A stretch of 64,000 nucleotides of DNA from Eubacteriales bacterium (GCA_045541395.1 JAZQIZ010000027.1:14006-78005), one strand, 5' to 3'; counted from the first letter of the stretch, positions 19,902-50,493 are shown. The notes: a model not told the origin generated them from the sequence alone. A program made the numbers and translations.

Positions 19902-21725
19902 TTAACCCCAATTAATTTTTAAAGAGTTAAACTGCGCAGCCTCGTTCTGATCAACGTCGTTACCGGAAATATCAAGAGAGGTAAGAGAGGTAACACCCCT
20001 TAATGTCTTAATAGTATTAATATAGTTGTCTGCCGCGTTAAGCTCACTTATATAAGGAAGTTCTGCTACAGGTGAAAGACTGCTTATATTATTATCGGAA
20101 ACGTCAAGGCTTCTTAAAGAGGTGATCCTGCAAATGCTGGATATATCCTCAATACCGCAGCTTCTTGCAGTAAGAGAATTAAGGTTTGTACCGCTAAGAG
20201 GAGAGAAATCCTCAATAGCATTATTGGAGAGATCCAGTGAGCTGACAGACTTAGCGCTTGCGATACCGGTAATATCCGTAAGGGCATTTCCGGAAAGATC
20301 AAGAGTCCTTAAGGAAGTAAGGAAGGAAAGTCCGGAAGCGGATTCTATAGCATTATCCTTGGCAGTAAGGGTATCAAGCTTATTAAGCTTACCTATATCG
20401 CTCAGCCCTGAAATGTTATTTTCAGATACGTCAAGATTTCTTAAGGAGGTTATTTCGCCAATACCACCAAGAGTTTTAATGCCGTTATTTTTAATAACCA
20501 GCTTGGTGATCTTACCATCCTTTAAAGCGGCAAGGCTATCGGCGGAGCCGTTTTCTCCTCCCAGGTCATTATCGTTTAAGGTAAGAGTCATAAGGGAGGT
20601 CATAGGAGCAAGGGCCTCAACTGAAGTTAAAGAACACTCGGAAAGATCGAGGGTCGTCAAAGACACACATCCTGCGATCTGCTTAAGATTATCCTCGCTG
20701 AGCTCAACACGGTTAACGGTTAAGGATTTAAGCTTGGGCACTTGGTTCAGGGGGCTGTAATCGGCGATAGTATCACCGTAAAGCTCAACCTTTGAAAGAT
20801 TCAAAAATTCAGAAAAGTCAGCCAAAGTAGTGATCTTGCCGGAGCTGTTCTCGCTTGAGAAGCTTTCAAGCTCATCGAGATCCTTATAGGTCAGTTCCTC
20901 ATAAATGCCTAACGCATCACGGACAACACTTTCTACAGCCTCATCAACAAATTTATAAATAGCGTTTTCATCTCTTACTCTGAAATCTCCCGCCTGTTCA
21001 TCTGTAAGAATGCCGGTCTCGGAAATGGCAAAGGCACGGATAGAGCATTTATCAGTTATTTCAATAGGAGAAGAGAATACTTTGGAAGTAAGATTAGGTT
21101 CAGAACCGTCGGTCGTATAATAAATAACCGCATTGGAAGAGGATGAAAGTGAAAGGCTGATTTTCTCACCGTAGGTACCGGGCTGAGAGGAAAAACTGAT
21201 TTTTGAAGGTCTGCTGTTTTCCATTTTAAGAAGCACGTAATTATTGGTGCAGCCGGCGAGGAATTCTCTTGCTTCGGACATTTTGCCCTGATAACACAAA
21301 GCTCTTGAAGCAATACCGTAAAACTCGTAAGTTGCAGGGGATTTTTCTATACTTTCAATTGCAAAATCGTAAGCCTCTTCATAAAGACCCAGATTTTCAT
21401 ATGTTTCACAAAGAGCTATTCTTGAGCCAACGTGTTCGGAATCCTTTTCCAAAGCTTTAAGTAAATATTCCTTAGCTTCTTCATAATTCTGCGCCTGAAC
21501 AGCAGCAACTCCCTTTTCGTAAAATTTATCTGCATTGCCGGGCTCATTGCCTGTAATAAACATTACCATACCTATAATAAACCCAATAAGCACAGTAACA
21601 CTGAAGGTCATAAAGAAAAGACGCACACGGCTTTTAAATATTTCCGGGTTCTTTTTTTCCGCCTTTTTAGATTCCTCTATTACAGGTTCTTCGGTTTGAA
21701 TTATTTTATTTTCGTTATTTTCCAT
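19902..21725 (-). CDS. single-pass membrane protein with TPR, Fn3/CHB_HEX_C-like and ~12 leucine-rich repeats
   Basis: 607 aa. A TM helix spans about aa 38-58. TPR-like helices include YEEAKEYLLKALEKD. The segment GTYGEKISLSLSS..VIYYTTDGSEP is present. About 22-aa LxxLxLxxNxI repeats run to the C-terminus. Confidence 0.7.
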   Translation of the reverse strand: MENNENKIIQTEEPVIEESKKAEKKNPEIFKSRVRLFFMTFSVTVLIGFIIGMVMFITGNEPGNADKFYEKGVAAVQAQNYEEAKEYLLKALEKDSEHVGSRIALCETYENLGLYEEAYDFAIESIEKSPATYEFYGIASRALCYQGKMSEAREFLAGCTNNYVLLKMENSRPSKISFSSQPGTYGEKISLSLSSSSNAVIYYTTDGSEPNLTSKVFSSPIEITDKCSIRAFAISETGILTDEQAGDFRVRDENAIYKFVDEAVESVVRDALGIYEELTYKDLDELESFSSENSSGKITTLADFSEFLNLSKVELYGDTIADYSPLNQVPKLKSLTVNRVELSEDNLKQIAGCVSLTTLDLSECSLTSVEALAPMTSLMTLTLNDNDLGGENGSADSLAALKDGKITKLVIKNNGIKTLGGIGEITSLRNLDVSENNISGLSDIGKLNKLDTLTAKDNAIESASGLSFLTSLRTLDLSGNALTDITGIASAKSVSSLDLSNNAIEDFSPLSGTNLNSLTARSCGIEDISSICRITSLRSLDVSDNNISSLSPVAELPYISELNAADNYINTIKTLRGVTSLTSLDISGNDVDQNEAAQFNSLKINWG

Positions 21726-21862: not shown

Positions 21863-22843
21863 ATGACTTTAAAAAAAATTATTATTATAATGATCCTTAT
21901 TTCCCTATTGCCGCTTTTGCCTCTGCTGATATCATATAAAAGCATAGGTGCTTTGCCTTACCCATCAAAGGTTGCAACAGATAATGATTCCGTTACCCGC
22001 TATGAAAACGTAAAAATTAAGCTGTTACATAACGGACGGATCATTGAAGTGGGACTTTTTGATTATTTATGCTCTGTTGTAAGCGGAGAAATGCCTGCGT
22101 TATACGAACCTGAAGCCTTAAAGGCCCAGGCTGTCGCGGCCTTTTCTTATGCTCTTTACAGGATCGATGCAAACGATTTCCCTGAGCATCAAGGTGCTCA
22201 GCTTTGTACCGATCCTTCACATTGCAAAGCCTATATAGACCAGAAAAGCAGAAAAGAAATCTGGAAGGAAAGCTTTGAGACCTACAATAAAAAAATAGAA
22301 GGAGCAGTAAGCGAGGTTCTGGGAGTTACGGTAATCTATAATGAAAAGCCGGCAAATACGGTATTCCACGCAATAAGCTCCGGACAAACCGAAAATGCTA
22401 AGGATATATGGGGCCAAAACGTGCCTTATCTGATCAGTGTTGACAGCTCCTGCGATCTGAGTGCTACGGAATTTCTTACGTTAACCACCGTAACAAAAGA
22501 TGAATTTTCAAAAAAACTTTCCATTAATGAAAACGAGATAGCTATTAGTAACGTTTCAAAAACCGCAGCGGGCTCGGTAAAAGAAATTAATATCTCAGGG
22601 AAAGCCTTTACCGGTGAAGATATTCGCCTTGCCTTTGGCTTGCGCTCGGCCAATTTTGAAATCGAGATCCTGGAAGAAGAAATTACTTTTCACGTAAAGG
22701 GCTACGGACACGGAGTTGGCATGAGCCAATACGGAGCCAACGAAATGGCTAAAGAGGGCTTTTCCTACCAAGAAATTCTGCAAAAATACTATCCCAATAC
22801 CGAACTTACTCTTATTTCCCCTTCCGTACTTACAGAACAATAA
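21863..22843 (+). CDS. spoIID: stage II sporulation protein D (SpoIID lytic transglycosylase family)
   Basis: 326 aa with an N-terminal TM. Contains ALKAQAVAAFSYALYR, VFHAISSGQTENA and a C-terminal GHGVGMSQYGA. Confidence 0.9.
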   Translation: MTLKKIIIIMILISLLPLLPLLISYKSIGALPYPSKVATDNDSVTRYENVKIKLLHNGRIIEVGLFDYLCSVVSGEMPALYEPEALKAQAVAAFSYALYRIDANDFPEHQGAQLCTDPSHCKAYIDQKSRKEIWKESFETYNKKIEGAVSEVLGVTVIYNEKPANTVFHAISSGQTENAKDIWGQNVPYLISVDSSCDLSATEFLTLTTVTKDEFSKKLSINENEIAISNVSKTAAGSVKEINISGKAFTGEDIRLAFGLRSANFEIEILEEEITFHVKGYGHGVGMSQYGANEMAKEGFSYQEILQKYYPNTELTLISPSVLTEQ

Positions 22844-35732: not shown

Positions 35733-36755
35733 TTATTTAAGGTTATGTGTTTCGGCATCGAAGGCTTCGTTTGCATCCCATGAAGAATATATATCGCTTG
35801 TGCCACGCTTATCGGTAAAATTATAATTTTCCATAAGATACTTGCCCATAAAATGGGTCATTTTAGTGGCGCCTTTATAATTTAAATGCTGATCGTCGCC
35901 CATATCGGCACCGTAATCTATTCCCACAAGATCCCTATTGGTATTGCAGTTAATAAGAGGTATTCCCTCTTCCTTTGCAATATCCTCTACCGTATTATAA
36001 ACATACTGCTCCACGTTTGAGCAACAGTAAGGAATACTTACAAGAAGAAGTTGGGTATCATTTTCCCTGCAAAGTTCAATAATTTTATAAAACCATTCTT
36101 CTGTTTTGGGATACATCGGCTTACGGTCTACTGAATTGCTAAGATCGGTCGGGCTGAAAAACTGATGCCCTGTATGCTCAACGTAGCCTTTCCAATGTTC
36201 GGGATATCTTTCCCAGTAGCCGGTAAAATCCTGAGTACCAAGCTCGTTGTAACGGGTATGATAAGAGGGGAAGCCCAGCATAAGTTCTAACCGATATTCC
36301 GGAGATGCGCCCACATTAACGGCATTCCACTTGTCCGCAGAAAGCCTAAGGCCCATAAGGTTTTTAACCATACGGCTGTAGTCTGTACCAAGATCATCAT
36401 CCCTTTGAAATTCCTCATCGAAATAGGTTGAGTCTATATCCAATACAATAACCTCAGGATCCTGATATTTAAGGGCTTCTTTAATATAATAGTAGGTACT
36501 CCAAAGAGGTTGTGCGGAACCAGCCATTACATACCCGGGAATACCGTGTTCACGCCAAAGAATAGCGGGATTAATACCCTCAAAGGCGTGTGATGAGCCA
36601 AAAAACATTACGTCACAGCTGTTTTTTGGCAGTTCGTAAAAAATGCTTAAGGGATAAATACCGTCAACATGCTTAAACTTTAAAATATTGCAAACGCCGG
36701 AAAGCGCAAGGGCCAGAACCAGAATAAACGCTATAATTTTTATTGCTTTTTTCAT
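35733..36755 (-). CDS. membrane-anchored DltD/SGNH-like O-acyltransferase partner protein
   Basis: 340 aa with an N-terminal TM. Contains FFGSSHAF (Ser nucleophile-like) and DDQHLN (Asp/His). Located immediately downstream of an MBOAT gene. Confidence 0.6.
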   Translation of the reverse strand: MKKAIKIIAFILVLALALSGVCNILKFKHVDGIYPLSIFYELPKNSCDVMFFGSSHAFEGINPAILWREHGIPGYVMAGSAQPLWSTYYYIKEALKYQDPEVIVLDIDSTYFDEEFQRDDDLGTDYSRMVKNLMGLRLSADKWNAVNVGASPEYRLELMLGFPSYHTRYNELGTQDFTGYWERYPEHWKGYVEHTGHQFFSPTDLSNSVDRKPMYPKTEEWFYKIIELCRENDTQLLLVSIPYCCSNVEQYVYNTVEDIAKEEGIPLINCNTNRDLVGIDYGADMGDDQHLNYKGATKMTHFMGKYLMENYNFTDKRGTSDIYSSWDANEAFDAETHNLK

Positions 36756-36770
36756 TTACACACACCTCCT

Positions 36771-38255
36771 TTAGAATTGGAAATAAATAAAGTCGGAAGC
36801 TACGTAATCGGGGCCGTACATGCCGAATACAAACACCGCAATTATTATGCATATGTAGATCATCCAACGGAACACCAACGGCTGTCCTTCGATTCTTTCA
36901 CGGATATCAAGCTTTTTAGAAAGCAGACTTATAATAAACAACACTGCAATACTTACAAAAAGTATGTTGAACTCGCTGCGGGCCATTAAGGCAAACATAG
37001 TTCTGGTGTTAAACAGAGTACCTAAACTAAAATTGCCAAATATATTTCCAATGACTGCAAAAGCATCTTTTAAAGTATTTGCGCGGAAGAATATCCAGGC
37101 AAAGTTAACAAGGGAGTAGGTTACACCCATCTGCAATAATCTTGTAGAAAAGCGTCCGTCTTCAATATGTAACAGCTTTTTAAAAAACTCTCTTACAGGC
37201 TTTAAAATATCGCCCAATATCTGATACAGGCCGTGAAGAGCGCCCCAGATAATAAAGGTAAAGTTTGCGCCGTGCCACAAGCCGCTGACAATAAACACAA
37301 TAAAGGTATTTAAATACTTTCTAATGGTGCCTTTCCTTGAACCTCCCAAGGGGAAATACAAATAATCCTTGAACCAGGAGGAAAGAGAAATATGCCATCT
37401 GCGCCAGAAGTCCCTTACGGAAACGGCAAAATACGGGGTATTGAAGTTTTTCATAAGGTTAATGTTCAGTATTTGAGCGGCGCCTCTTGCTATATTGGAA
37501 TAACCGCAGAAATCGCAATAAACCTGAATACCGAAAAGCAGGGTTGCTAAAAGCAGCACAGAGCCGGACTGTGATCGTATATTACCGTTATATACCGTAT
37601 TTACAAAAATAGCTATTCTGTCGGCAATAACCATTTTCTGAATAAAGCCGTAGCCCATAAGCAAAAGACCCTTGCGAATATTTTCGCCGTTGGGACTTGT
37701 AGGCTTTTTAAGTTGAGGAAGCAAATTAGAGGAGCGTTCTATAGGCCCTGCCACAAGCTGGGGGAAGAATGAAACGAAAAGAGCGTAATAGAAAAGATTC
37801 TTTTCGGCGGGCAGGTCTTTTCTGTAAACATCCATTGTGTAGCTTAAGGCCTGGAAGGTGTAAAAGGAAATACCTACAGGCAGAAGAATATCAAAGTTCA
37901 AGGTAAATATTTGGGTACCGGCAAGGGCGTTTATGCTTTCAACGGCAAAACCAAAGTATTTAAAGAAGAAAAGAATTGCAAGGTTGATGCCAAATGAAAG
38001 CCCCACCCAGAGTTTTTTCAAATTCTTGCTTTTCCTTTTATTTTCAATACCGTCAGCCTTTTCAATAAGCAGGCCGGAAAGCCAGGTAACCAAGGTTGAA
38101 GTGGCTATGAGAAGTGCATAGGAAGCATTCCAGCACATATAAAAGAAATAGCTGGAAACAAGAAGCCATACCCATCTTACCTTTTTAGGCAATGCAAAGT
38201 ACAACAGAACCACTATCGGCAAAAAGAGCAAAAATTCATAGGAATTAAAATTCAC
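36771..38255 (-). CDS. MBOAT-family membrane O-acyltransferase (AlgI/DltB/PatA-like)
   Basis: 494 aa and polytopic. Contains RRWHISLSSWFKDYLYFPLGG and the conserved His in LWHG. GTG start with AAAGGGGG upstream. Confidence 0.85.
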   Translation of the reverse strand: MNFNSYEFLLFLPIVVLLYFALPKKVRWVWLLVSSYFFYMCWNASYALLIATSTLVTWLSGLLIEKADGIENKRKSKNLKKLWVGLSFGINLAILFFFKYFGFAVESINALAGTQIFTLNFDILLPVGISFYTFQALSYTMDVYRKDLPAEKNLFYYALFVSFFPQLVAGPIERSSNLLPQLKKPTSPNGENIRKGLLLMGYGFIQKMVIADRIAIFVNTVYNGNIRSQSGSVLLLATLLFGIQVYCDFCGYSNIARGAAQILNINLMKNFNTPYFAVSVRDFWRRWHISLSSWFKDYLYFPLGGSRKGTIRKYLNTFIVFIVSGLWHGANFTFIIWGALHGLYQILGDILKPVREFFKKLLHIEDGRFSTRLLQMGVTYSLVNFAWIFFRANTLKDAFAVIGNIFGNFSLGTLFNTRTMFALMARSEFNILFVSIAVLFIISLLSKKLDIRERIEGQPLVFRWMIYICIIIAVFVFGMYGPDYVASDFIYFQF

Positions 38256-42512: not shown

Positions 42513-44450
42513 ATGAAAAAGTTCCTATCAGTTCTTTTGGTAGTCATTACTCTGCTGTCAATTATCCCCGGAACTATATTAAGCGTTTCTGCTGCAACAA
42601 TTGACAATGAAGCATTTAACGCTAAGATCACCGAACTTAAAAAAGTTTTCAGGGACGGTGAATATTGGAATGCATATAACTCGGTTAAATACGAAGGTAC
42701 CGGCACAAAAAAATGTCCCTGTACAGGATGCTGCAATAACTGCGCATGCAAATGCGGCCAGTTTTACTATGACGGCAAATGGTATGCAGGACAGTGCTAC
42801 GGCTGGGCACAGAAGATCGGCCATTTAATATTTGGCGGTATTCCCTCTCATGACTGGACTAAGCATTACAATGCAGCCAACCTGAAACCCGGCGACATTG
42901 TTCGAGGCGATTTATCTTCGTATAATAAATATTGGACTAACCACGCTATAATAGTTACTGCCGTTACCGGCAATAAAGTCACCTTTGCGGACTGCAACAG
43001 TTCAGGTGCTTGCCAGGTAAAATGGGGCAGAACCACAACAATTGCCGTAATTAAAGAAGCTGTAGCTGATAAAGGCGCTTTTATTCTCCATGCAAAAAAC
43101 AGCACTACCACAGCATCCGATGCCCCTGTAATTAAGTATTCCACCATTACTGCCGGTGAATATTATTTAAAGAACGTTGGCACCGGAAAATATCTTACGG
43201 TTGACGGCGGCAAAGACGTTAATAAAACAAACGTAAAGGTTGCAGCTAAGGCAGAAACAAAAGCCTTTAAAATGAAAATAACCGCCGCAACTACAGGCTA
43301 TAAAATAAGACCTCTTTGCTGTGCTTCCCGCCTTGTGAATCCTTTTGCAGATATTGTATCAAACGGAGTAAACGTTAATATTTATACAGACTCAAAGGAT
43401 CCCTCGCAGTGGTGGCGCTTTGAAAAGACAGACAAGGGTTATATAATACATAACACCCAAAACCCCGACTGTGTGCTTACTGCCAACAGCAGTAATAACG
43501 TATTGGTTTCAACCAATAAGAAGACTGACAGTCAAATATGGATACTGGAATGTGTAGGCGAACACAATTACAAAACAACCACCACCAAGGCTACAGCAGA
43601 CGCCAACGGTAAAAAGGTAACAGCCTGTACGCTGTGCGGGAAAGTTAAAACCACCACCGTTATTTACAAACCCGAAACCTTTACTCTTTCGGCCACCTCT
43701 TACAAATATAGCGGAAGCGCTAAGAAGCCCACTGTTACAGTTAAGGATTCTCAGGGCAACACTCTTATTAAGGACACCGATTACACTCTTACCTACGCAA
43801 CAGGCAGAGTTAAGCCGGGCAAATATAAGATAACAGTTAATTTTACCGGCAAATACAGCGGTTCCAAGCAATTATTCTTTAATATCAAGCCCCTTGCTCC
43901 CGCTAAAGTAAACGTTGCAAGCCGAAGCACAAGCTACATTAAGCTTTCCTGGCCTGAGGCTGTAGGCGCTACCGGCTACAGAATTTATAAATACGATTCT
44001 GCAACCGGCACCTATAAGACGGTTGCAACAACAACTAACCTTTCTTATACTATCAAGAGCCTTAGCTCTGCAACCAATTATAAATTTGCAATTAAGTCTT
44101 ATACCGAGCTTTCTGACGGCAGCCGTATCTGGAGCGGCAGAAGAGCAATAACAACCTCAAGCCGCCCCATTGCTCCTCTTATCAATTCTGCAGTCTCCTA
44201 CGGCAAAGGTAAAATAACAATTAAATGGAACGACGTTGCAAGAGAAAGCGGCTACAAGATTTATTACAGCACTACCGCAAACGGAACTTACAAGTTACTG
44301 CGCACTCTTAATCCCAACGACGTATCGGAAACCTGCACAGGCCTTACAAGTGGGAAGACCTATTACTTTAAAGTAAGAGCATTCAAGACCGTTAACGGCA
44401 CCAAGATATATAGCTCCTACAGCCCCGCAAAGGCCGCTAAAATTAAGTAA
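42513..44450 (+). CDS. secreted multidomain protein: Cys-rich papain-like (CHAP/NlpC-P60-type) domain, ricin-B lectin, Ig-like, two FN3 domains
   Basis: 645 aa with a signal peptide. GQCYGWAQ (Cys), NHAIIV (His) and DCN are present. QxW motifs are SQWWRF and SQIWIL. The FN3-like repeats have a W..V.GATGYRIY pattern. Confidence 0.65.
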   Translation: MKKFLSVLLVVITLLSIIPGTILSVSAATIDNEAFNAKITELKKVFRDGEYWNAYNSVKYEGTGTKKCPCTGCCNNCACKCGQFYYDGKWYAGQCYGWAQKIGHLIFGGIPSHDWTKHYNAANLKPGDIVRGDLSSYNKYWTNHAIIVTAVTGNKVTFADCNSSGACQVKWGRTTTIAVIKEAVADKGAFILHAKNSTTTASDAPVIKYSTITAGEYYLKNVGTGKYLTVDGGKDVNKTNVKVAAKAETKAFKMKITAATTGYKIRPLCCASRLVNPFADIVSNGVNVNIYTDSKDPSQWWRFEKTDKGYIIHNTQNPDCVLTANSSNNVLVSTNKKTDSQIWILECVGEHNYKTTTTKATADANGKKVTACTLCGKVKTTTVIYKPETFTLSATSYKYSGSAKKPTVTVKDSQGNTLIKDTDYTLTYATGRVKPGKYKITVNFTGKYSGSKQLFFNIKPLAPAKVNVASRSTSYIKLSWPEAVGATGYRIYKYDSATGTYKTVATTTNLSYTIKSLSSATNYKFAIKSYTELSDGSRIWSGRRAITTSSRPIAPLINSAVSYGKGKITIKWNDVARESGYKIYYSTTANGTYKLLRTLNPNDVSETCTGLTSGKTYYFKVRAFKTVNGTKIYSSYSPAKAAKIK

Positions 44451-44508: not shown

Positions 44509-44691
44509 TTACTTCATATTCTGTTCGTACTTTTCGACCATCTTCTTAACCATCTGGCCACCGACGGAACCCGCCTGCTTTGAAGTAAGATTACCGTTAT
44601 AACCCTGCTGAAGGTTTACGCCTACTTCATTGGCACATTCCATTTTGAACTGCTTGAGAGCATCTTTATTTGCCTTGCTGTTCTTGCTCAT
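44509..44691 (-). CDS. alpha/beta-type small acid-soluble spore protein
   Basis: Start trimmed to ATG 44691, with SD GGAGGTG. 60 aa: MSKNSKANKDALKQFKMECANEVGV...LTSKQAGSVGGQMVKKMVE. Confidence 0.9.
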   Translation of the reverse strand: MSKNSKANKDALKQFKMECANEVGVNLQQGYNGNLTSKQAGSVGGQMVKKMVEKYEQNMK

Positions 44692-44745
44692 TTTTTTCAC
44701 CTCCGTTATCCCGTGATTTGAATTTGCGTTGTTGGGATACGAAAG

Positions 44746-44774
44746 TATTTTTACCTTAAACGAAGAAAACATAC
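44746..44774 (-). promoter_or_regulatory. weak candidate forespore (sigma-G/F-type) promoter for the SASP gene
   Basis: GTATG-17-AAAAATA on the minus strand. Only a partial match to GHATR-17/18-CATxHTA. Confidence 0.25.
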
Positions 44775-44794: not shown

Positions 44795-44836
44795 AAGGAA
44801 AACGGCATTTAAGCTTAAAGCCTAAATGCCGTTTTT
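44795..44836 (-). terminator. rho-independent terminator after the cohesin gene
   Basis: 13-bp stem AAAACGGCATTTA/TAAATGCCGTTTT with an 11-nt loop and a U-rich tail on the minus strand. Confidence 0.75.
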
Positions 44837-44841
44837 GTTAT

Positions 44842-45513
44842 TCAGTTATGCTTCTTTTTGTAAATCAAAAATGCGCTTAATGCACTTACCAAAAGAACCA
44901 GGATCACAGGAAGAAGAATCATATTATCGCCTGTAAAAATATTTTCTTCCTTCTCGCTTTCAGGTTTATCCTCTTCTTCGGGATCGGGCTCAGGAACTAC
45001 CGTTTCGTCGGATAAGGTTATAGGCTCAATTTTAACCGCAAGATCATTTGCAACAGACTCAAAGGCCTGACCTTCGGGAGCATCCAAAGAAAGAGATTCA
45101 ACGGTAAAATCAAACTTAGGATCAGCTTCCTTTAAAACCTTAAACTCAACGGTGTAAATAACACCTTTTTTAAGGTCAACGCCTTCTGTGGCGGTACCAC
45201 CGTAATTGGCATAGCCTTCGGTGTTATTGCCTGCACAGAGCATTGTGAAGCCTTCAAATACCTCTTTGCCTTCAATATTATAGTTTCCGTTTTCCTTAAC
45301 TATTTCAAGAACCTCAGGGTCAAACTTTAAGGAGAAGGAACCGTTTATTGCATTTTCAATTTCGGTTTCAAGGCAAATATCAACCAAAACGGTTTCGCCT
45401 TCTTTTGCGTCAAAGCCTTTAACAACAATATCAGCATCGGCAGCGCAAACGCCCACAGCCAAGGAGAATGCCATTACAAGAATTAAAACTATAGAAATTA
45501 TACGTTTTTTCAT
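44842..45513 (-). CDS. single-cohesin-domain surface protein with C-terminal sorting-signal-like anchor
   Basis: 223 aa with a signal peptide. A ~140-aa cohesin-like beta-sandwich (VVKGFDAKEGETVLVDICLE..NGSFSLKFDPEVLEI) is followed by a Pro/Glu linker, NIFTG, a hydrophobic helix and KKKHN. SD GGAGGA lies 13 nt after the upstream stop. Confidence 0.7.
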   Translation of the reverse strand: MKKRIISIVLILVMAFSLAVGVCAADADIVVKGFDAKEGETVLVDICLETEIENAINGSFSLKFDPEVLEIVKENGNYNIEGKEVFEGFTMLCAGNNTEGYANYGGTATEGVDLKKGVIYTVEFKVLKEADPKFDFTVESLSLDAPEGQAFESVANDLAVKIEPITLSDETVVPEPDPEEEDKPESEKEENIFTGDNMILLPVILVLLVSALSAFLIYKKKHN

Positions 45514-45526
45514 TTTTCCATCCTCC

Positions 45527-48500
45527 TTATATTAAGCCTTCGGATCTGAGCCAATCAAGAAGCTCGTTTGCATAAACCTCATTATCTTCCACACGGGGAT
45601 GACCGGGATGAGAAAGTGTTCTTTCCATATGGAAGTATACGTTAAGATCACCGTCCTCATTTCTAACGGTATTAACCGCCTCTTCTATAAGATCAGAGGG
45701 GCTGGTAATTATAATGCCGTAGGTACATACAATAGGAGCGTTGGGATAACGTTCCCTTAAATATCTTAACAATTCAACGTAAGAATCAACAAAGGCTTTC
45801 TTTCTTACGGGGTTTGCACCGATATAGTCGTTATCGTTAGTACCTAAGTTAATTATAATAAGATCGGTACGGGTATTGTCAAGGCCAAGCTCGCCTTCAT
45901 AACCCCAGAACAAGTCGGTATATCTGTAACGTGCGGTTATATTTCTGCCTACCTGAACGTCTCTTCTTACAGGACCCGCAGATTCGTTACAAGCAGCGCC
46001 GGAATTTGCGAATACGGTAAAGTCGGCATCCAGCTTTCTTGCAAGCATAGCATAAGCGGTATTGTAAGAGTTTTCTTCTTTCAGAACATAAGGACCTTCA
46101 TACAGGCCGGGGGTTTCATTATACATACCGGCGGAAATAGAGTCACCTATTATCTGAATACCAATATCCTTTCGGGAATTGGGAGCAAGCAGCTGACCGT
46201 CAACCTTAATGCCGCTGATAAGAGCAGAGGAATATGCGGTCTGATTCTGCTTAAGGATCTTAACGGTATGTTCACCTTCTTCAAGGCCTTCGGCTAAGGT
46301 ATACCATGCCTTGGAGCCTGTAAGGGTGAGTACCTTGGAGGGAGTATCTTCACCGTCAACGAATACCTGAATTAAGGGATAGGTTGAATTATCAAAAATA
46401 GTATTGCCTATAAGCTCAACCTGAGCCTTGGTGCCCTTGAAGTTAAATTCAACACCGGAGCAGCTCCAGTTAAAGTTATAGCCTTTAAGGGTTTCGTTGT
46501 AATAAGTTCTGCCTATGTGACGAACGTTATTCTGTGTTACGGTTATAACGCCCTGCTCGTTGGCTGTAAGTTCTTCCTCGGTAGGATCAACCTCGGGAGC
46601 AAGGGACATCTCGGGAGCGGTAAGCTCCTTGCCCTGCGCTAAAGCTTTAGCTAAAACAGTGGCGTCATCCATTGTAATACCGGCTACACCGTCAAGCTCG
46701 GCTACTGCAAGGCCGCCTTCGGCAACAACGGTGTTTTCTTCTTTAATGAGATAATTAATAAGAAGAATAAGGTCATCGTCATCAACGTCACCGTCGCAAT
46801 CAATATCACCGTATTTGCTTATAAATAAAACATTATAAGAAAAGTCCTTATCAAGATAGGAGCATTCCACCTCATACTCGGTGCCGCCTGTAATATTTGC
46901 AGGGAAGCCGGAGGTTATCATAGAAACCTTAAGAAGCTCAGTTGCAACAGGCTTATCCTCAACGGTATCACCGCCTAAGATTATTGCTATCTCACCGCCG
47001 GAGGTAACGAAATGATCATCACTTAAGCTGTATTCGGTTTTAGGAAGCTTGGAAATTTCAATACTGTCTACAGAATAATAAACTATAGGGAGAACAAATT
47101 CATTGCCTTTGTAGGTACAAATGATTTCCTGTACAGTATCGGGGTTTTCGGTAGAAACATAGTACTTGCCGTTTCCATCCGGATTAAGGTTAATGCCAAC
47201 GGACTTTAAGTTGGGCTCGATAATATAATTATCATCACCGTTTGCCTTTAATTTTAAACCGGTAAGGTCAAGCTCGGTATTCTCGCCGTAATAAAGCTTT
47301 GAGGGCATCTGTTCTACTTCAAGGGAAAGGATCTCGCCGCGGCTATCCACAAGATCGCCGTTAAGAACGCTTACGCCGTAGAAATAGAATTCTTCGTTAT
47401 TACCGATAACATTATCGCCGTTGGTAATGGTAACCTTATGATCTCCTTCGCTGAGGCCGGTTACGGAATACACGGCGTAATCTGCAACAACACCTTCAAC
47501 CACCATTTCCATAGGAACGGGATCAGAGCCGTCAATGCTGATATAAGCAACGTCGTTATTATAAATTATCCAGCCGCCTTTTCCGTCAGACTGAACGTTT
47601 ACCATTGCATAAACCTTGAAGCCGTCACCGTCAACGTTGAAGGTAACTTTATCGCCTCTTGCTACAGCTCTCATATAAGGAGAAAGCTGGCCCCAGTTGC
47701 CTGTATATTCATAATCGGGATGAATAACACCCTTATCGTCTACAGCGCGGATAATGTCGCTCCACTGAGGGGGCTCGAGCATATAGCCACCGCTTGAAAG
47801 CTGAACGCCGTGGAAGAAGAACTGAGCGCCCCACTGGCTTTCTCTGCCGCGGTTTTCTATTGTTACGGTATGTCTGCCTTCTTCAAGGCCCTTTGCTTCG
47901 TAAACGATAGCAGCTGTACCGGGAGTTGCTTCAACCCACATATCGGCCTTTACAAACTCGCCGCCGTCAAGGCTTACGTAAACCTCATCATTGTTCCAGG
48001 ACTGGCCGTTCTGAACGTTAACACAAGCAATCAGACGAACGCCTGTACCGTAAAAAGCAAAGTCACATACGCCGCCTGCTGCGCCGGAATGCATATATTT
48101 TGTAATACCGTCACCAAAGATATTCCATGCAACGCCGGTAAATGCAAAGGCAGTGGAGGGAACGTCATTTTTATCAACTGCAACAATTTCCTCATCCCAG
48201 CTTACAACAGGCTGTACGGAGCCGTTTTCAACACTTACGCTGTTCAGATAGAAACTGTTTGAAATAGCGGGAGCGCTATACTGGCCGCAGGTTATAACCG
48301 CAGTATGGTCACCTGCAGTAAGGCCCGTAATTTCAAATACGTCCTGATGCGCAATGGTGTGGGTCTCGGCTACCATATTAAGAGGCATTGCCTCTCCACC
48401 GTCGATGCTTATCTTCACGTCATTATTAACACAAGAGTCAAGAACACCGTCACCGGTAACGTCCTGTGTATTAACGAATGCGTTTACTTTAAGGCCTGTA

Positions 48501-49213
48501 CCGTTAAACTTAAAGGAAACTTTTTCACCGTTAAGCCAGCATTCATAGGAATTGCCTGTCCATACGTCGGAAGGATTAAGCACTCTCCAGTTAACAGAAA
48601 AGTCAAACTTTTCGGTATCGGGATTTTGGGAGGAATTAAGTACCTTGTATACGGACCAATTTGAGGTATGCCCCATCTTGCCGTTAAGAATACTTACACT
48701 GTTTAAATAAAAGCTGTTTGAAATGGCGGGAGCGCTGTACTGGCCGCAGGTTATAACCGCAGTATGGTCACCTGCAGTAAGGCCCGTAATTTCAAATACG
48801 TCCTGATGAGCAATGGTGGTGGTCTCGGCTACCATATTAAGAGGTAACGCTTCACCGCCGTCTATGCTTATCTTTACGTCATTATTAACACAAGAGTCAA
48901 GAACACCGTCACCGGTAACGTCCTGTGTATTAACGAATGCGTTTACTTTAAGGCCTGTACCGTTAAACTTAAAGGATACTTTTTCGCCGTTAAGCCAGCA
49001 TTCATAGGAATCACCTGTCCAAACATCTGAAGGATTAAGAACGCGCCAGAGGCTTGACCAAGTAAAATTCTCGGTATCGGGGGCCTTGGTGGCAGTATCG
49101 GCAATAACCTTATACTCTGTCCACTGATCAGCCGCCATAACCGGCATTATACCCAGCATAAGTATTGCAACCAAAGTTAGTGCAAGTACTCTGAGGGCGG
49201 AACGTTTTTTCAT
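45527..49213 (-). CDS. secreted dockerin-containing carbohydrate esterase (CE2-like jelly-roll + SGNH/GDSL hydrolase) with four N-terminal beta-sandwich modules and Ig-like domains
   Basis: 1228 aa with a signal peptide. The SGNH blocks are IIGDSISAG, an NSG-containing Gly block, INLGTNDN and a C-terminal HP. A CE2_N-like segment (HIGRTYY..NFNWSCSGVEFNFKGT) is present. Confidence 0.75.
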   Translation of the reverse strand: MKKRSALRVLALTLVAILMLGIMPVMAADQWTEYKVIADTATKAPDTENFTWSSLWRVLNPSDVWTGDSYECWLNGEKVSFKFNGTGLKVNAFVNTQDVTGDGVLDSCVNNDVKISIDGGEALPLNMVAETTTIAHQDVFEITGLTAGDHTAVITCGQYSAPAISNSFYLNSVSILNGKMGHTSNWSVYKVLNSSQNPDTEKFDFSVNWRVLNPSDVWTGNSYECWLNGEKVSFKFNGTGLKVNAFVNTQDVTGDGVLDSCVNNDVKISIDGGEAMPLNMVAETHTIAHQDVFEITGLTAGDHTAVITCGQYSAPAISNSFYLNSVSVENGSVQPVVSWDEEIVAVDKNDVPSTAFAFTGVAWNIFGDGITKYMHSGAAGGVCDFAFYGTGVRLIACVNVQNGQSWNNDEVYVSLDGGEFVKADMWVEATPGTAAIVYEAKGLEEGRHTVTIENRGRESQWGAQFFFHGVQLSSGGYMLEPPQWSDIIRAVDDKGVIHPDYEYTGNWGQLSPYMRAVARGDKVTFNVDGDGFKVYAMVNVQSDGKGGWIIYNNDVAYISIDGSDPVPMEMVVEGVVADYAVYSVTGLSEGDHKVTITNGDNVIGNNEEFYFYGVSVLNGDLVDSRGEILSLEVEQMPSKLYYGENTELDLTGLKLKANGDDNYIIEPNLKSVGINLNPDGNGKYYVSTENPDTVQEIICTYKGNEFVLPIVYYSVDSIEISKLPKTEYSLSDDHFVTSGGEIAIILGGDTVEDKPVATELLKVSMITSGFPANITGGTEYEVECSYLDKDFSYNVLFISKYGDIDCDGDVDDDDLILLINYLIKEENTVVAEGGLAVAELDGVAGITMDDATVLAKALAQGKELTAPEMSLAPEVDPTEEELTANEQGVITVTQNNVRHIGRTYYNETLKGYNFNWSCSGVEFNFKGTKAQVELIGNTIFDNSTYPLIQVFVDGEDTPSKVLTLTGSKAWYTLAEGLEEGEHTVKILKQNQTAYSSALISGIKVDGQLLAPNSRKDIGIQIIGDSISAGMYNETPGLYEGPYVLKEENSYNTAYAMLARKLDADFTVFANSGAACNESAGPVRRDVQVGRNITARYRYTDLFWGYEGELGLDNTRTDLIIINLGTNDNDYIGANPVRKKAFVDSYVELLRYLRERYPNAPIVCTYGIIITSPSDLIEEAVNTVRNEDGDLNVYFHMERTLSHPGHPRVEDNEVYANELLDWLRSEGLI
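46631..46819 (-). other. type-I-like dockerin module inside the esterase
   Basis: The first F-hand is complete: YGDIDCDGDVDDDDLILLINYL. The second is less canonical: ELDGVAGITMDDATVLAKAL. Confidence 0.7.
48233..49048. repeat. in-frame 459-bp tandem duplication (two ~153-aa modules) within the esterase gene
   Basis: The cores at 48233-48589 and 48692-49048 encode 119 aa with only 3 substitutions. Two more diverged copies follow downstream in the protein. Confidence 0.9.
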
Positions 49214-49289: not shown

Positions 49290-49305
49290 AGTTTATCGTT
49301 AAACT
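49290..49305. promoter_or_regulatory. LacI-family-type palindromic operator candidate
   Basis: AGTTTATCGTTAAACT has 7 of 8 symmetric pairs around a central CG. It lies between the divergent esterase and LacI-family genes. Confidence 0.45.
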
Positions 49306-49431
49306 TTCTACCTTTTGCACAAAAAATGCCTGATCTGAATTTTTTATTTTAGGTGTTTTTGCATATATGAAAAGGACTTATTTGACAAAGTTATTCGAAA
49401 TATGTTAGTATTAATAGAAGAGGTGGTTTTT

Positions 49432-50493
49432 ATGGAGAAGCTTTTTTCTGTGGAAAGCATAGAATCGGGCAAGGTCACAATTAAAGATATTGCAAAAATA
49501 GCCAACGTTTCGGCAACTGCTGTCAGTAACGCTTTGTCGGGCAAGCCAAATATAAGCGCCAAAATGAGAGAGCTCATTATGCAAACGGCTGAGGAACTTG
49601 GCTACACCCCGAATCTTACAGCCCGTTCTCTTAACAGGAGCAATATCCGCATCGCTCTGATTTTACCGGATAACCCCACTGAGATCTCACAGCAGTACAT
49701 AAATGGGATGAAGAAGGCTATCAAAAGTTATTCAGGCGCTAAGCTTGAATGTGATATTATAACCTATGCCACCACCGACGATCACGCACGTCATGCTCTT
49801 TTGCATATTGCGGAAAATCCTTACGATGGAATTATTATTTCATTTCCCAACATTCATGAATACAAACATAAGGATATTTTTAAAAAGATCAACGAAAAGA
49901 ATATTCCCGTTATTTCTATAGTTGACGCTCTCAGTGAGTTAAATACCTGCGCAAATGTAATGGTTGACGCCAAAACGGGCGGCGCCTTAGCAGCAGATAT
50001 TATAGGAAACTGTATAGGTGAAGAATCCTGCGCTGTATTTACGGCAGTCAACCCCTTGCAGATCGTACATAAAAGCTACATTGAGGGCTTCAAGGAAGAG
50101 CTTAAATTTTACAACACAAAAATAAGCGAGATCTTTTATTCTACCGACGTAAACAACACCGCCTACTCCAGAGCTAAGGACTGTTTTTCTCAGAAAAACC
50201 CGCCTAAAGCCGCATTTGCAACCTGCTATAACGCCTTTGAAATATGCAATGCTTTAAAGGAGCTCGGCCTGGACAGAAGTATTAAGGTAGTTGGAGTGGA
50301 CACCACAGATAAAAACTACACCTGTCTTTCTAACGGAAGCCTTACTGCAACCATATATCAGAGGCAGGATGAGCAAATAAGAAGAGCATTTTTAACGCTT
50401 ATTGATTGTATTCTTACCAATAACGCCGAGCGCAGAGAAAACATTCTTGTTACGCCTAATATTATTACCAAAAGCAGAGCCGGTCATAAATAA
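49432..50493 (+). CDS. LacI-family transcriptional regulator
   Basis: Start trimmed to ATG 49432 (MEKLFSV), with GAGGTG upstream. Contains the HTH TIKDIAKIANVSATAVSNALSG and a periplasmic-binding-protein-like effector domain. Confidence 0.85.
   Translation: MEKLFSVESIESGKVTIKDIAKIANVSATAVSNALSGKPNISAKMRELIMQTAEELGYTPNLTARSLNRSNIRIALILPDNPTEISQQYINGMKKAIKSYSGAKLECDIITYATTDDHARHALLHIAENPYDGIIISFPNIHEYKHKDIFKKINEKNIPVISIVDALSELNTCANVMVDAKTGGALAADIIGNCIGEESCAVFTAVNPLQIVHKSYIEGFKEELKFYNTKISEIFYSTDVNNTAYSRAKDCFSQKNPPKAAFATCYNAFEICNALKELGLDRSIKVVGVDTTDKNYTCLSNGSLTATIYQRQDEQIRRAFLTLIDCILTNNAERRENILVTPNIITKSRAGHK

What the first reader, a model, noticed from the sequence alone, without database searches (positions are those of the whole stretch)
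44842..49213. Self-contained two-gene cohesin-dockerin module: dockerin-bearing CE2/SGNH esterase plus a dedicated single-cohesin anchor
The 1228-aa secreted enzyme carries an internal dockerin (DIDCDGDVDDDDLILLINYL ... ELDGVAGITMDDATVLAKAL). The dockerin lies between Ig-like domains and a C-terminal CE2-type esterase, which has a jelly-roll plus SGNH blocks GDSISAG and NLGTNDN. Thirteen nt after its stop, with its own SD and no terminator, comes a 223-aa protein. That protein consists only of a signal peptide, one cohesin-like domain, a Pro/Glu linker and a cell-anchoring tail. Together they form a minimal enzyme-plus-anchor operon rather than a multi-cohesin scaffoldin. The organism would thus tether one specific deacetylase to its own surface through a private cohesin-dockerin pair, under a neighbouring LacI-type regulator. 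Whether the pair is cognate, and what polysaccharide is deacetylated, are open questions.
Basis: partly seen in the sequence, partly recalled or inferred. Interest (0 to 1): 0.7.

Follow-up and report, generated by a model that had tools for sequence, protein, structure and literature searches.

The report
Esterase with its own cohesin-dockerin anchor
A gut Clostridia-type bacterium encodes a large secreted acetyl-esterase carrying a dockerin plug, and immediately downstream a small cell-surface protein carrying the matching type of cohesin socket; this two-gene unit is real and conserved, but it is a new variant of a known display system, not a new kind of system.

Summary
On the minus strand there is a 1228-aa secreted CE2/SGNH esterase (45527..49213). 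After a 13-nt gap containing GGAGG comes a 223-aa protein (44842..45513), followed by a strong terminator. The small protein passes Pfam's cohesin cut-off (35 bits against 24.1). All 50 listed PDB fold matches of its AlphaFold model are cohesins. The dockerin is below the Pfam cut-off in this copy (14.7 to 19 bits against 22.9). However, three of five orthologous segments pass, and a profile of six orthologues hits solved dockerins at E down to 8.5e-11. Its second calcium loop is atypical. The gene pair recurs in six other loci (five distinct), in at least four different neighbourhoods. All five representatives of this cohesin clade, out of 1.84 billion proteins, sit next to such an esterase. 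The anchoring end of the small protein varies (LPXTG-like tail, choline-binding repeats, extra modules), but the cohesin is constant. The most likely function is one-to-one tethering of a hemicellulose deacetylase to the cell surface. Binding, calcium dependence, substrate and exclusivity are untested. Known precedents are ScaE-type anchors, the C. lentocellum ClcC/ClcD operon and CtCel5C-CE2. I rate it a new variant of a known kind, of moderate interest.

The parts
45527..49213 (-). Gene for the 1228-aa secreted multimodular CE2 acetyl-esterase that carries an internal dockerin
   Evidence: ORF. Pfam CE2_N 128 bits and Lipase_GDSL_2 44.7 bits. Best solved relative is the C. thermocellum CtCel5C-CE2 esterase module 2wao, E 1.5e-22. 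Orthologues P0004, P0005 and P0006 are 54-70% identical.
49133..49213 (-). Signal peptide of the esterase (residues 1-27, MKKRSALRVLALTLVAILMLGIMPVMA/AD)
   Evidence: Read directly from the translation: basic N-region, hydrophobic core, A-x-A-type cleavage site. No predictor was run.
47348..49132 (-). Four CE2_N-like jelly-roll modules (residues about 28-182, 183-335, 336-482, 483-622); probably carbohydrate-binding or spacer modules
   Evidence: Pfam CE2_N reports 4 stretches. Isolated modules score 21.3, 23.4 and 13.8 bits, below the 27.9 cut-off. Modules 1 and 2 are a 459-nt tandem duplication, 92% identical over 300 nt. Module number differs among orthologues.
46814..47347 (-). Conserved beta-rich region directly upstream of the dockerin (residues 623-800); possibly two Ig-like 'X' modules
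   Evidence: No Pfam match. Highly conserved among orthologues. In the AlphaFold model only residues about 630-710 are moderately confident (pLDDT 58-84). Fold matches are weak and not significant.
46628..46813 (-). Internal dockerin (residues 801-862). First F-hand D803-D814, DIDCDGDVDDDD, is canonical. Second loop E839-D850, ELDGVAGITMDD, is atypical.
   Evidence: Pfam Dockerin_1 14.7 and 19.0 bits, below the 22.9 cut-off. Orthologous segments score 23.6, 28.7 and 28.1 bits, above it. The single sequence hits the 4uyp_B dockerin at E 7.7e-4 over residues 801-862. A six-orthologue profile matched 29 distinct PDB sequences at E <= 0.1, the top 25 (E <= 2.1e-4) all dockerin modules or dockerin-carrying enzymes, best E 8.5e-11.
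45530..46516 (-). CE2 catalytic unit: CE2 N-terminal jelly roll (residues 900-1011) plus SGNH hydrolase domain (residues 1018-1228). Key residues are Ser1025 (GDSIS), Gly1072, Asn1126 (GTND) and His1205 (GHP).
   Evidence: The alignment to 2wao matches GDSI, SG and NLGTND. His1205-Pro aligns with the His-Pro of Est2A (3u37), the position that is Ala in the variant entry 4dev. All four residues are invariant in four orthologues.
45514..45526 (-). 13-nt intergenic spacer with Shine-Dalgarno GGAGG (45526-45522), 8 nt before the ATG of the anchor gene
   Evidence: Sequence read. No terminator-like site in the gap. Short gaps also occur in relatives: 18 nt in L001, 15 nt in L002 and L003, 28 nt in L005, 16 nt in L007.
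44842..45513 (-). Gene for the 223-aa single-cohesin surface anchor: signal peptide 1-24, cohesin 25-165, Pro/Glu linker 166-190, C-terminal sorting-signal-like tail 191-223
   Evidence: ORF. Pfam Cohesin 35 bits against 24.1. AlphaFold model with core pLDDT 64-84 (mean 60.8) is a beta sandwich plus an N-terminal signal-peptide helix and a C-terminal helix. All 50 listed PDB fold matches are cohesins, best 5nrm_A at E 9e-7.
45019..45441 (-). Cohesin module (residues 25-165)
   Evidence: An exhaustive profile search gave five clade members at 79 bits or more. The next hits checked, P0012-P0016 (56-70 bits), all carry 4-10 cohesin stretches; P0012 has 10 cohesins plus CBM3 plus a dockerin.
44845..44943 (-). 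Cell-envelope retention signal: NIFTGD motif (191-196), about 21 hydrophobic residues, then KKKHN
   Evidence: Tripartite layout read. NCBIfam LPXTG_anchor scores 13.6 bits, below the 15.9 cut-off. Orthologue tails are LPGTGD (L002), NGNTGD (P0002), VPNTSD (L003) and NPIMGD (P0009), each followed by a hydrophobic stretch and K/R. C. difficile SrtB substrates end in (S/P)PXTGD-type signals such as SPKTGDN (PMC4155245).
44799..44835 (-). Intrinsic terminator closing the two-gene operon
   Evidence: 17-bp stem with 6 G-C pairs followed by a T-rich tail. Sequence seen.
49290..49305 (.). Candidate LacI-family operator: imperfect palindrome AGTTTA-ACGA-TAAACT, 77-92 nt upstream of the esterase ATG
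   Evidence: Inverted repeat I8. A similar element, TATTTAACGTTTAACT, lies at the equivalent place in the syntenic locus L001. Inference only; there is no binding evidence.
49402..50493 (+). Divergently transcribed LacI-family regulator (the real start is probably Met11 at 49432)
   Evidence: Pfam LacI 51.3 bits and Peripla_BP_4 94 bits. The L001 orthologue is 353 aa, in the same position and orientation. The regulator is not adjacent in L002, L003 or L005.

Best explanation
The region is a two-gene operon for non-covalent surface display of one enzyme.

Proposed mechanism:
1. Both products are exported by Sec signal peptides.
2. The 223-aa protein is held in the cell envelope by its C-terminal LPXTG-like tail. 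It is either linked to the wall by a sortase or, if not cleaved, remains a membrane anchor. It presents one compact cohesin on a roughly 25-residue Pro/Glu linker.
3. The 1228-aa esterase carries an internal dockerin between a conserved beta-rich region and the C-terminal CE2 module. The dockerin plugs into that cohesin. The asymmetric repeats suggest a single binding orientation.
4. This fixes the CE2 Ser-His deacetylase and its four jelly-roll modules at the cell surface. There it removes O-acetyl groups from a hemicellulose. Glucomannan, xylan or xyloglucan are the plausible substrates.
5. The 13-nt spacer with its own ribosome-binding site gives co-transcription. In this lineage a divergent LacI-type repressor probably controls the promoter.

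Shown here: the gene layout, the domain identities, conservation of the pair, and the variation of the anchoring end.

Inferred: cohesin-dockerin binding, calcium dependence, sortase processing, substrate and regulation.
For: Domain identities.

Operon structure.

The esterase-then-cohesin order is conserved in L001, L002/L004, L003, L005/L006 and L007. Their surrounding genes differ: housekeeping genes plus LacI; GH2, GH31 and aldose epimerase; GH36; AraC plus two GH2 genes.

Co-occurrence is complete in both directions:
- All five 50%-identity representatives of the cohesin clade, among 1.84 billion proteins, lie beside such an esterase.
- All four full-length esterase homologues have the cohesin gene downstream.
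- There is exactly one cohesin and one dockerin per locus across about 143 kb of held sequence.

The partner keeps its cohesin while the anchoring end changes. This fits a role as an anchor or adaptor:
- LPXTG-like tails (window, L002, L003, L005, L007).
- Choline-binding cell-wall repeats in L001 (30 bits).
- An added Big_2 module in L002.
- Added CBM_4_9-like modules in L003, plus a weakly jelly-roll-like stretch.

Experimental precedents exist for both halves: ScaE and Sca2 single-cohesin sortase anchors (PMC5301203, PMC4611034) and the ClcC/ClcD two-gene cohesin-dockerin heterodimer (PMC13487519).
Against: - No binding evidence of any kind.
- The window's dockerin is below the Pfam cut-off.
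- Its second loop has a hydrophobic residue at ligand position 5 and no Gly at position 6. The L006 orthologue is more degenerate still (NVHGYAGITIAD). Calcium binding at site 2 is therefore uncertain.
- The tail motif NIFTG lacks the Leu-Pro of LPXTG and scores below the LPXTG_anchor cut-off.
- No credible sortase gene was seen in the window: the four TLxTC-type pattern matches fell in unrelated or spurious ORFs.
- Only 64 kb of this genome is visible, so other cohesins or dockerins elsewhere cannot be excluded.
- The cohesin model is only moderately confident (mean pLDDT 60.8).
Confidence: 0.6

Rival explanations
1. The small cohesin protein is a general surface hub, like R. flavefaciens ScaE or R. 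bromii Sca2. It would bind several dockerin-bearing proteins encoded elsewhere in the genome. The esterase would be just one client that happens to be encoded next to it, as cttA lies next to scaE.
For: ScaE and Sca2 have the same architecture (signal peptide, one cohesin, sortase-type tail) and bind many dockerins (PMC5301203; PMC4611034). Only 64 kb of this genome could be inspected.
Against: Every known member of this cohesin clade sits beside the esterase, and the reverse holds too. No further dockerin or cohesin occurs in the 64-kb window or in about 79 kb of related loci. The pair moves together between different genomic neighbourhoods. A hub would be expected to occur without this one client in at least some genomes.
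Confidence: 0.22
2. The two modules are not cognate. The esterase docks onto a different cohesin, for example a scaffoldin elsewhere or one from another species. The small protein would bind a different ligand.
For: Adjacency does not prove binding. Cross-species cohesin-dockerin recognition and non-canonical partners have been reported (PMC13487519).
Against: Strict co-inheritance and tight spacing (13-28 nt) across six loci in different contexts would be hard to maintain without a functional link. The single experimentally tested case of an adjacent single-cohesin and single-dockerin operon does form a heterodimer (PMC13487519).
Confidence: 0.1
3. The dockerin-like segment is a degenerate calcium-binding or linker element that no longer binds any cohesin. 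The cohesin-fold protein would have a dockerin-independent role at the surface, for example carbohydrate or wall binding.
For: The window's dockerin scores below the Pfam cut-off, and its second loop lacks a canonical ligand at position 5. Non-cellulosomal cohesin-like modules of unknown partner exist, for example 2jh2 and 2xdh among the fold matches.
Against: The segment is conserved at full length in all orthologues. It has an invariant first F-hand and a well-conserved second helix (TMDDATxL). Three orthologues pass the Pfam cut-off. The profile matches solved functional dockerins at E 8.5e-11, and 4uyp_B over both repeats.
Confidence: 0.07

Closest known systems
Cellulosilyticum lentocellum ClcC/ClcD minimal cellulosome-like operon (PMC13487519, 2026)
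   Same: A two-gene operon with a short gap and separate ribosome-binding sites. One protein has a single cohesin and the other is an enzyme with a single dockerin. The dockerin is predicted to be asymmetric, with a single binding mode. The cohesin is phylogenetically set apart from scaffoldin cohesins. The pair was shown experimentally to form a heterodimer.
   Different: In ClcC/ClcD the cohesin gene comes first. ClcC has CBM3 plus X2 and no cell anchor, so it targets the substrate rather than the cell. The enzyme is a GH5 cellulase with a C-terminal dockerin. Here the enzyme gene comes first, the cohesin protein is a cell-envelope anchor, the enzyme is a CE2 esterase, and the dockerin is internal.
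Ruminococcus flavefaciens ScaE anchoring scaffoldin with CttA/ScaB X-dockerins (PMC5301203); also R. champanellensis ScaE and R. bromii Sca2 (PMC4611034)
   Same: Signal peptide, one cohesin, linker and a C-terminal sortase-type sorting signal. The client gene cttA lies in the same sca gene locus as scaE (ScaC, ScaA, ScaB, ScaE and CttA). A conserved module sits directly upstream of the client's dockerin.
   Different: ScaE and Sca2 are hubs that bind many dockerins within large cellulosome or amylosome systems. ScaE has a true LPXTG motif and a type III cohesin. Here the clade is strictly paired with one enzyme, the motif is degenerate (NIFTGD), and the best fold matches are compact type I cohesins.
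Clostridium thermocellum CtCel5C-CE2 (CelE; PDB 2wao; PMC2661963)
   Same: Closest solved relative of the catalytic part (E 1.5e-22). It has the same local order: dockerin, short linker, CE2 jelly roll, SGNH domain. It uses a Ser-His catalytic pair, and the oxyanion-hole Gly and Asn are conserved.
   Different: CtCel5C-CE2 has an N-terminal GH5 cellulase and joins the multi-enzyme CipA cellulosome. Here four jelly-roll modules plus a beta-rich region replace GH5, and the partner is a dedicated single-cohesin anchor.
Ruminococcus bicirculans single cohesin / single dockerin associated with a GH73 enzyme (as cited in PMC4611034)
   Same: A non-cellulolytic gut Clostridia species with just one cohesin and one dockerin.
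   Different: Different enzyme class (GH73 peptidoglycan hydrolase). I did not inspect its sequence or gene order, so the comparison rests only on the citing paper.

Membership tests
Cohesin (Pfam PF00963) | Score at or above the Pfam gathering cut-off | tested here: met
   35.0 bits against 24.1, residues 29-146. Orthologues score 47.1, 41.4, 29.7 and 23.3 bits.
Cohesin (Pfam PF00963) | Nine-stranded jelly-roll beta-sandwich fold resembling solved cohesins | tested here: met
   The AlphaFold model has 10 strands between residues 29 and 156, with block pLDDT 64-84 over residues 31-150 and only a 4-sequence alignment. Foldseek against the PDB: all 50 listed matches are cohesins, best E 9.1e-7, TM up to 0.64.
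Cohesin (Pfam PF00963) | Binds a dockerin | not testable with these tools
Dockerin type I (Pfam PF00404) | Score at or above the Pfam gathering cut-off | tested here: inconclusive
   Window copy: 14.7 bits (whole protein) and 19.0 bits (isolated, profile positions 1-56 of 57) against 22.9, so not met. Orthologous segments: 23.6, 28.7 and 28.1 bits met; 21.5 and 16.2 bits not met. The orthologue profile against PDB dockerins gives E 8.5e-11.
Dockerin type I (Pfam PF00404) | Two duplicated F-hand calcium loops (ligands at positions 1, 3, 5, 9, 12), each followed by a helix | tested here: inconclusive
   Loop 1, DIDCDGDVDDDD, has all ligand positions. Loop 2, ELDGVAGITMDD, keeps positions 1, 3, 9 and 12, but position 5 is Val (Phe, Met or Tyr in orthologues) and position 6 is not Gly. 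Helices are predicted after both loops, but at low confidence.
Carbohydrate esterase family 2 | N-terminal jelly-roll (CE2_N) fused to an SGNH domain | tested here: met
   CE2_N 128 bits against 27.9, and Lipase_GDSL_2 44.7 bits against 32.9. PDB 2wao E 1.5e-22 and 4xvh E 3.7e-18.
Carbohydrate esterase family 2 | Catalytic Ser-His pair with Gly and Asn oxyanion-hole residues | tested here: met
   Ser1025, Gly1072 and Asn1126 align with the GDS, SG and GTND motifs of 2wao. His1205 aligns with the Est2A His-Pro. All are invariant in orthologues. Roles of the residues are taken from PMC2661963.
Carbohydrate esterase family 2 | Acetyl-esterase activity on acetylated glucomannan or xylan | not testable with these tools
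   NCBIfam AxeC2 equivalog scores only 68 bits against a cut-off of 500, so no specific assignment can be made.
Sortase substrate (LPXTG cell-wall sorting signal) | LPXTG-type pentapeptide | tested here: not met
   The window has NIFTG. NCBIfam LPXTG_anchor scores 13.6 bits against 15.9. The L002 orthologue has a true LPGTG; the others have NGNTG, VPNTS and NPIMG.
Sortase substrate (LPXTG cell-wall sorting signal) | Motif followed by a hydrophobic segment and a basic C-terminal tail, on a protein with an N-terminal signal peptide | tested here: met
   NIFTGDN, then MILLPVILVLLVSALSAFLIY, then KKKHN. It is the only ORF in the window that fits the pattern. The layout is conserved in four orthologues.
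Sortase substrate (LPXTG cell-wall sorting signal) | A sortase encoded in the genome | tested here: inconclusive
   A TLxTC-type pattern search gave four matches in unrelated or spurious ORFs and no credible sortase in the 64-kb window. The rest of the genome is not available.
Minimal one-cohesin / one-dockerin operon (ClcC/ClcD type) | Adjacent, co-oriented genes for a single-cohesin protein and a single-dockerin enzyme | tested here: met
   Conserved in six related loci.
Minimal one-cohesin / one-dockerin operon (ClcC/ClcD type) | These are the only cohesin and dockerin in the genome | not testable with these tools
   Only the 64-kb window and up to 8 kb (up to 6 kb for L004) on either side of the gene in each related locus are held. 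None of them contains another.

The most novel reading that the evidence does not exclude
The pair is a portable, strictly one-to-one 'enzyme plus private anchor' cassette. Its rare cohesin clade and its dockerin, which has a non-canonical second calcium loop, would form a specificity group orthogonal to cellulosomal pairs. The cassette would have moved between gut Clostridia lineages while swapping the anchoring end (LPXTG-like tail, choline-binding repeats, added binding modules). Modules may also have shifted between the two partners.
Probability: 0.3. Interest if true: 0.5.

Novelty: new variant of a known kind. Interest (0 to 1): 0.38.

Why it matters
If the pair is cognate and exclusive, cohesin-dockerin docking would be serving as a dedicated one-enzyme surface tether in non-cellulosomal gut Clostridia. 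That would extend the 'minimal cellulosome' idea from substrate targeting (ClcC/ClcD) to cell anchoring, and from glycoside hydrolases to a deacetylase. The natural swapping of anchoring ends around a constant cohesin is a clear example of modular evolution. The pair could also supply an orthogonal cohesin-dockerin couple for designer display systems. It does not open a new class of mechanism.

Tried and rejected
Attempts that gave nothing:
- A genome-collection scan with the cohesin protein found nothing.
- The same collection scanned with the esterase alignment gave one locus, L004, an uncultured Eubacteriales MAG from Hadza gut.
- Two JGI metagenome scans found nothing.
- Word-indexed protein searches returned only 2 to 6 homologues.
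- The window's own contig could not be retrieved, and cluster look-ups gave no names. The organism is therefore placed only as a spore-forming Clostridia-type Firmicute, based on SASP and SpoIID.
- The model of residues 620-885 was too poor to classify the pre-dockerin region (pLDDT 52).

Ideas considered and rejected:
- A multi-cohesin scaffoldin. There is only one cohesin.
- Other dockerins in the window. There are none; one extra pattern match at 33618, inside the ComEC-like ORF, is a chance hit.
- Lipoprotein anchoring. No lipobox is present, and orthologues have plain A-x-A cleavage sites.
- 'Ig-like' N-terminal domains. They are CE2_N-like jelly rolls.
- LacI control as a conserved feature of the module. 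It is seen only in the window and L001.
- Inferring the substrate from neighbouring genes. The GH2, GH31, GH36 and aldose-epimerase neighbours differ between loci and give no consistent answer.
Full report
**1. What is there**

The minus strand carries two tightly spaced ORFs: 45527..49213 (1228 aa) and 44842..45513 (223 aa). The first ends with TAA at 45529-45527. GGAGG follows at 45526-45522, and the next ATG is at 45513. The gap is therefore 13 nt, with its own ribosome-binding site and no terminator. A 17-bp-stem terminator lies just after the second gene, at 44835..44799. Upstream, a LacI-family gene is transcribed divergently at 49402..50493. The surrounding genes are housekeeping or sporulation genes: YidC, RnpA, PNPase, IF-2, ComEC, CarB, SpoIID and an alpha/beta-type SASP. 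GC content is level at about 0.42. This is a chromosome of a spore-forming Clostridia-type bacterium. The only titled relative is 'uncultured Eubacteriales bacterium', a MAG from Hadza gut (L004).

**2. The enzyme**

Pfam gives CE2_N at 128 bits (cut-off 27.9) and Lipase_GDSL_2 at 44.7 bits for residues 900-1170. The nearest solved structure is the CE2 module of C. thermocellum CtCel5C-CE2 (2wao, E 1.5e-22).

- Ser1025 (GDSIS), Gly1072 and Asn1126 (NLGTND) align with the catalytic Ser and the oxyanion-hole residues of 2wao (residue roles from PMC2661963).
- His1205 aligns with the His-Pro of Est2A. That position is replaced in the variant entry 4dev.
- All four residues are invariant in the orthologues.

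It consists of four roughly 150-residue modules that each weakly match CE2_N. The first two arose by a 459-nt tandem duplication that is still 92% identical. Residues 623-800 are conserved and beta-rich, have no Pfam match and modelled poorly.

**3. The dockerin**

Residues 803-814 (DIDCDGDVDDDD) form a canonical F-hand loop. Residues 839-850 (ELDGVAGITMDD) keep ligand positions 1, 3, 9 and 12. Position 5 is hydrophobic and position 6 is not Gly. All orthologues share this pattern, and it is more degenerate in L006.

The window copy is below the Pfam cut-off, at 14.7 bits in the whole protein and 19.0 bits as an isolated segment, against 22.9. Three lines of evidence still support a dockerin:
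- The isolated segment aligns over the full profile.
- Three of five orthologous segments pass the cut-off (23.6, 28.7 and 28.1 bits).
- A six-sequence profile matched 29 distinct PDB sequences at E <= 0.1, the top 25 (E <= 2.1e-4) all dockerin modules or dockerin-carrying enzymes. The best E is 8.5e-11, and 4uyp_B is covered across both repeats.

I accept it as a dockerin with an atypical, asymmetric second repeat. Whether site 2 binds calcium is open.

**4. The partner**

The 223-aa protein scores 35 bits on Pfam Cohesin against a cut-off of 24.1. AlphaFold with only four sequences gives a beta sandwich, with block pLDDT 64-84 over residues 31-150 (mean 60.8 for the whole protein). A helix at each end corresponds to the signal peptide and the C-terminal hydrophobic segment. 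All 50 listed PDB fold matches are cohesins of types I, II and III, and the best matches are compact type I modules.

The tail reads NIFTGDN, then about 21 hydrophobic residues, then KKKHN. This is the tripartite layout of a cell-wall sorting signal. The pentapeptide, however, is not LPXTG, and the NCBIfam model scores 13.6 bits against 15.9. Orthologue tails read LPGTGD, NGNTGD, VPNTSD and NPIMGD. C. difficile SrtB substrates carry (S/P)PXTGD-type signals such as SPKTGDN (PMC4155245). Envelope retention is therefore well supported. Sortase cleavage of this particular copy is uncertain.

**5. Is the pairing meaningful?**

This was the main test.

- Esterase homologues are rare, with six hits by the word-indexed search. 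Each full-length homologue has a cohesin gene 15-18 nt downstream: L001, L002 and L003.
- Starting instead from the cohesin, P0002 (L007) and P0009 (L005/L006) each lie 16-28 nt downstream of a truncated CE2 esterase with the same dockerin.
- An exhaustive HMMER search with a profile of the cohesin, across 1.84 billion representatives, found five clade members at 79 bits or more. All five are these neighbours. The next hits checked (P0012-P0016, 70 bits or less) each carry 4-10 cohesin stretches.
- Neighbourhoods differ among the loci, so the two genes travel as a unit. The window and L001 have LacI plus housekeeping genes. L002 has GH2, an alpha/beta-hydrolase, GH31 and aldose epimerase. L003 has GH36. 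L005 has AraC and two GH2 genes.
- A tblastn and motif scan over all 143 kb of held sequence finds exactly one cohesin and one dockerin per locus.
- The partner's anchoring end is interchangeable. L001 has choline-binding wall repeats, L002 a Big_2 module plus LPGTG, and L003 about 500 extra residues with CBM_4_9-like modules. L003 also has one stretch weakly resembling the esterase's jelly rolls (E 0.017), and its esterase is the shortest. A constant cohesin with a variable anchor is what an anchor or adaptor for the esterase dockerin would show.

**6. Mechanism, with status of each step**

- Export of both proteins: inferred from signal peptides read by eye.
- Retention of the cohesin protein in the envelope: layout shown, processing inferred.
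- Calcium-dependent docking of the esterase: inferred from domain identity and strict co-inheritance.
- Deacetylation of a hemicellulose at the cell surface: family membership shown, substrate unknown. Characterised CE2 enzymes act on acetylated glucomannan and xylan (PMC2661963).
- Repression by LacI: inferred. A conserved imperfect palindrome at 49290-49305 has a counterpart in L001. The regulator is not part of the unit in more distant relatives.

**7. Comparison with known systems**

- The anchor has the architecture of ScaE and Sca2 (PMC5301203, PMC4611034).
- The dockerin-then-CE2 order is that of CtCel5C-CE2 (PMC2661963).
- A two-gene single-cohesin, single-dockerin operon that forms a heterodimer was described in C. 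lentocellum in 2026 (PMC13487519).
- R. bicirculans is reported to have one cohesin and one dockerin (cited in PMC4611034).

Three things are new here. The combination is a dedicated one-to-one cell-surface tether for a CE2 esterase. The cohesin clade is rare and distinct. The second dockerin repeat is atypical. The unit is scarce in public data: it is absent from the JGI metagenome contigs and present in one of the species-representative genomes.

**8. Verdict**

I rate it a new variant of a known kind, of moderate interest.

Noticed in passing
window 48221-48520 and 48680-48979: A 459-nt tandem duplication, 92% identical over 300 nt, inside the esterase gene. It produces jelly-roll modules 1 and 2. 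The number of such modules differs among orthologues (1048 to 1389 aa).
   Followed up: partly
window 49402-49432: The LacI ORF as listed starts at 49402. A promoter-like site overlaps that start (49382-49411), GAGGTGG precedes the ATG at 49432, and the L001 orthologue is 10 residues shorter. The real start is probably Met11 at 49432.
   Followed up: partly
window 42513-44450 (+): A secreted 645-aa protein with a Cys-rich N-terminal region, ricin-type lectin repeats, a Big_3-like stretch and fibronectin type III domains. It has no cohesin or dockerin, and its function is unknown.
   Followed up: no
window 19902-21725 (-): A 607-aa protein with leucine-rich repeats plus a chitobiase/hexosaminidase C-terminal domain and a TPR stretch. 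This looks like a surface-protein architecture, of the LRR kind that R. bromii attaches through dockerins, but no dockerin is present here.
   Followed up: no
window 35733-38255 (-): An MBOAT-family O-acyltransferase (36771..38255) followed by a 340-aa ORF. This could be a polysaccharide or teichoic-acid O-acylation pair about 7 kb from the esterase. No link to the esterase was established.
   Followed up: no
P0007 and P0008 (NCBI contig of 11.8 kb): Two proteins share about 33% identity with the N-terminal jelly-roll half of the esterase. They carry choline-binding wall repeats in place of the dockerin and esterase. The jelly-roll modules therefore also occur on directly wall-bound proteins.
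   Followed up: partly
L003 5650-7773: The cohesin partner in this locus is 707 aa. It has CBM_4_9-like modules and a stretch weakly similar to the esterase jelly rolls (E 0.017), while the adjacent esterase is the shortest orthologue. Modules may have moved between the two partners.
   Followed up: partly
window 44509-44772 (-): An alpha/beta-type small acid-soluble spore protein gene lies directly downstream of the operon terminator. Together with SpoIID at 21863-22843, it marks the host as a spore former.
   Followed up: no
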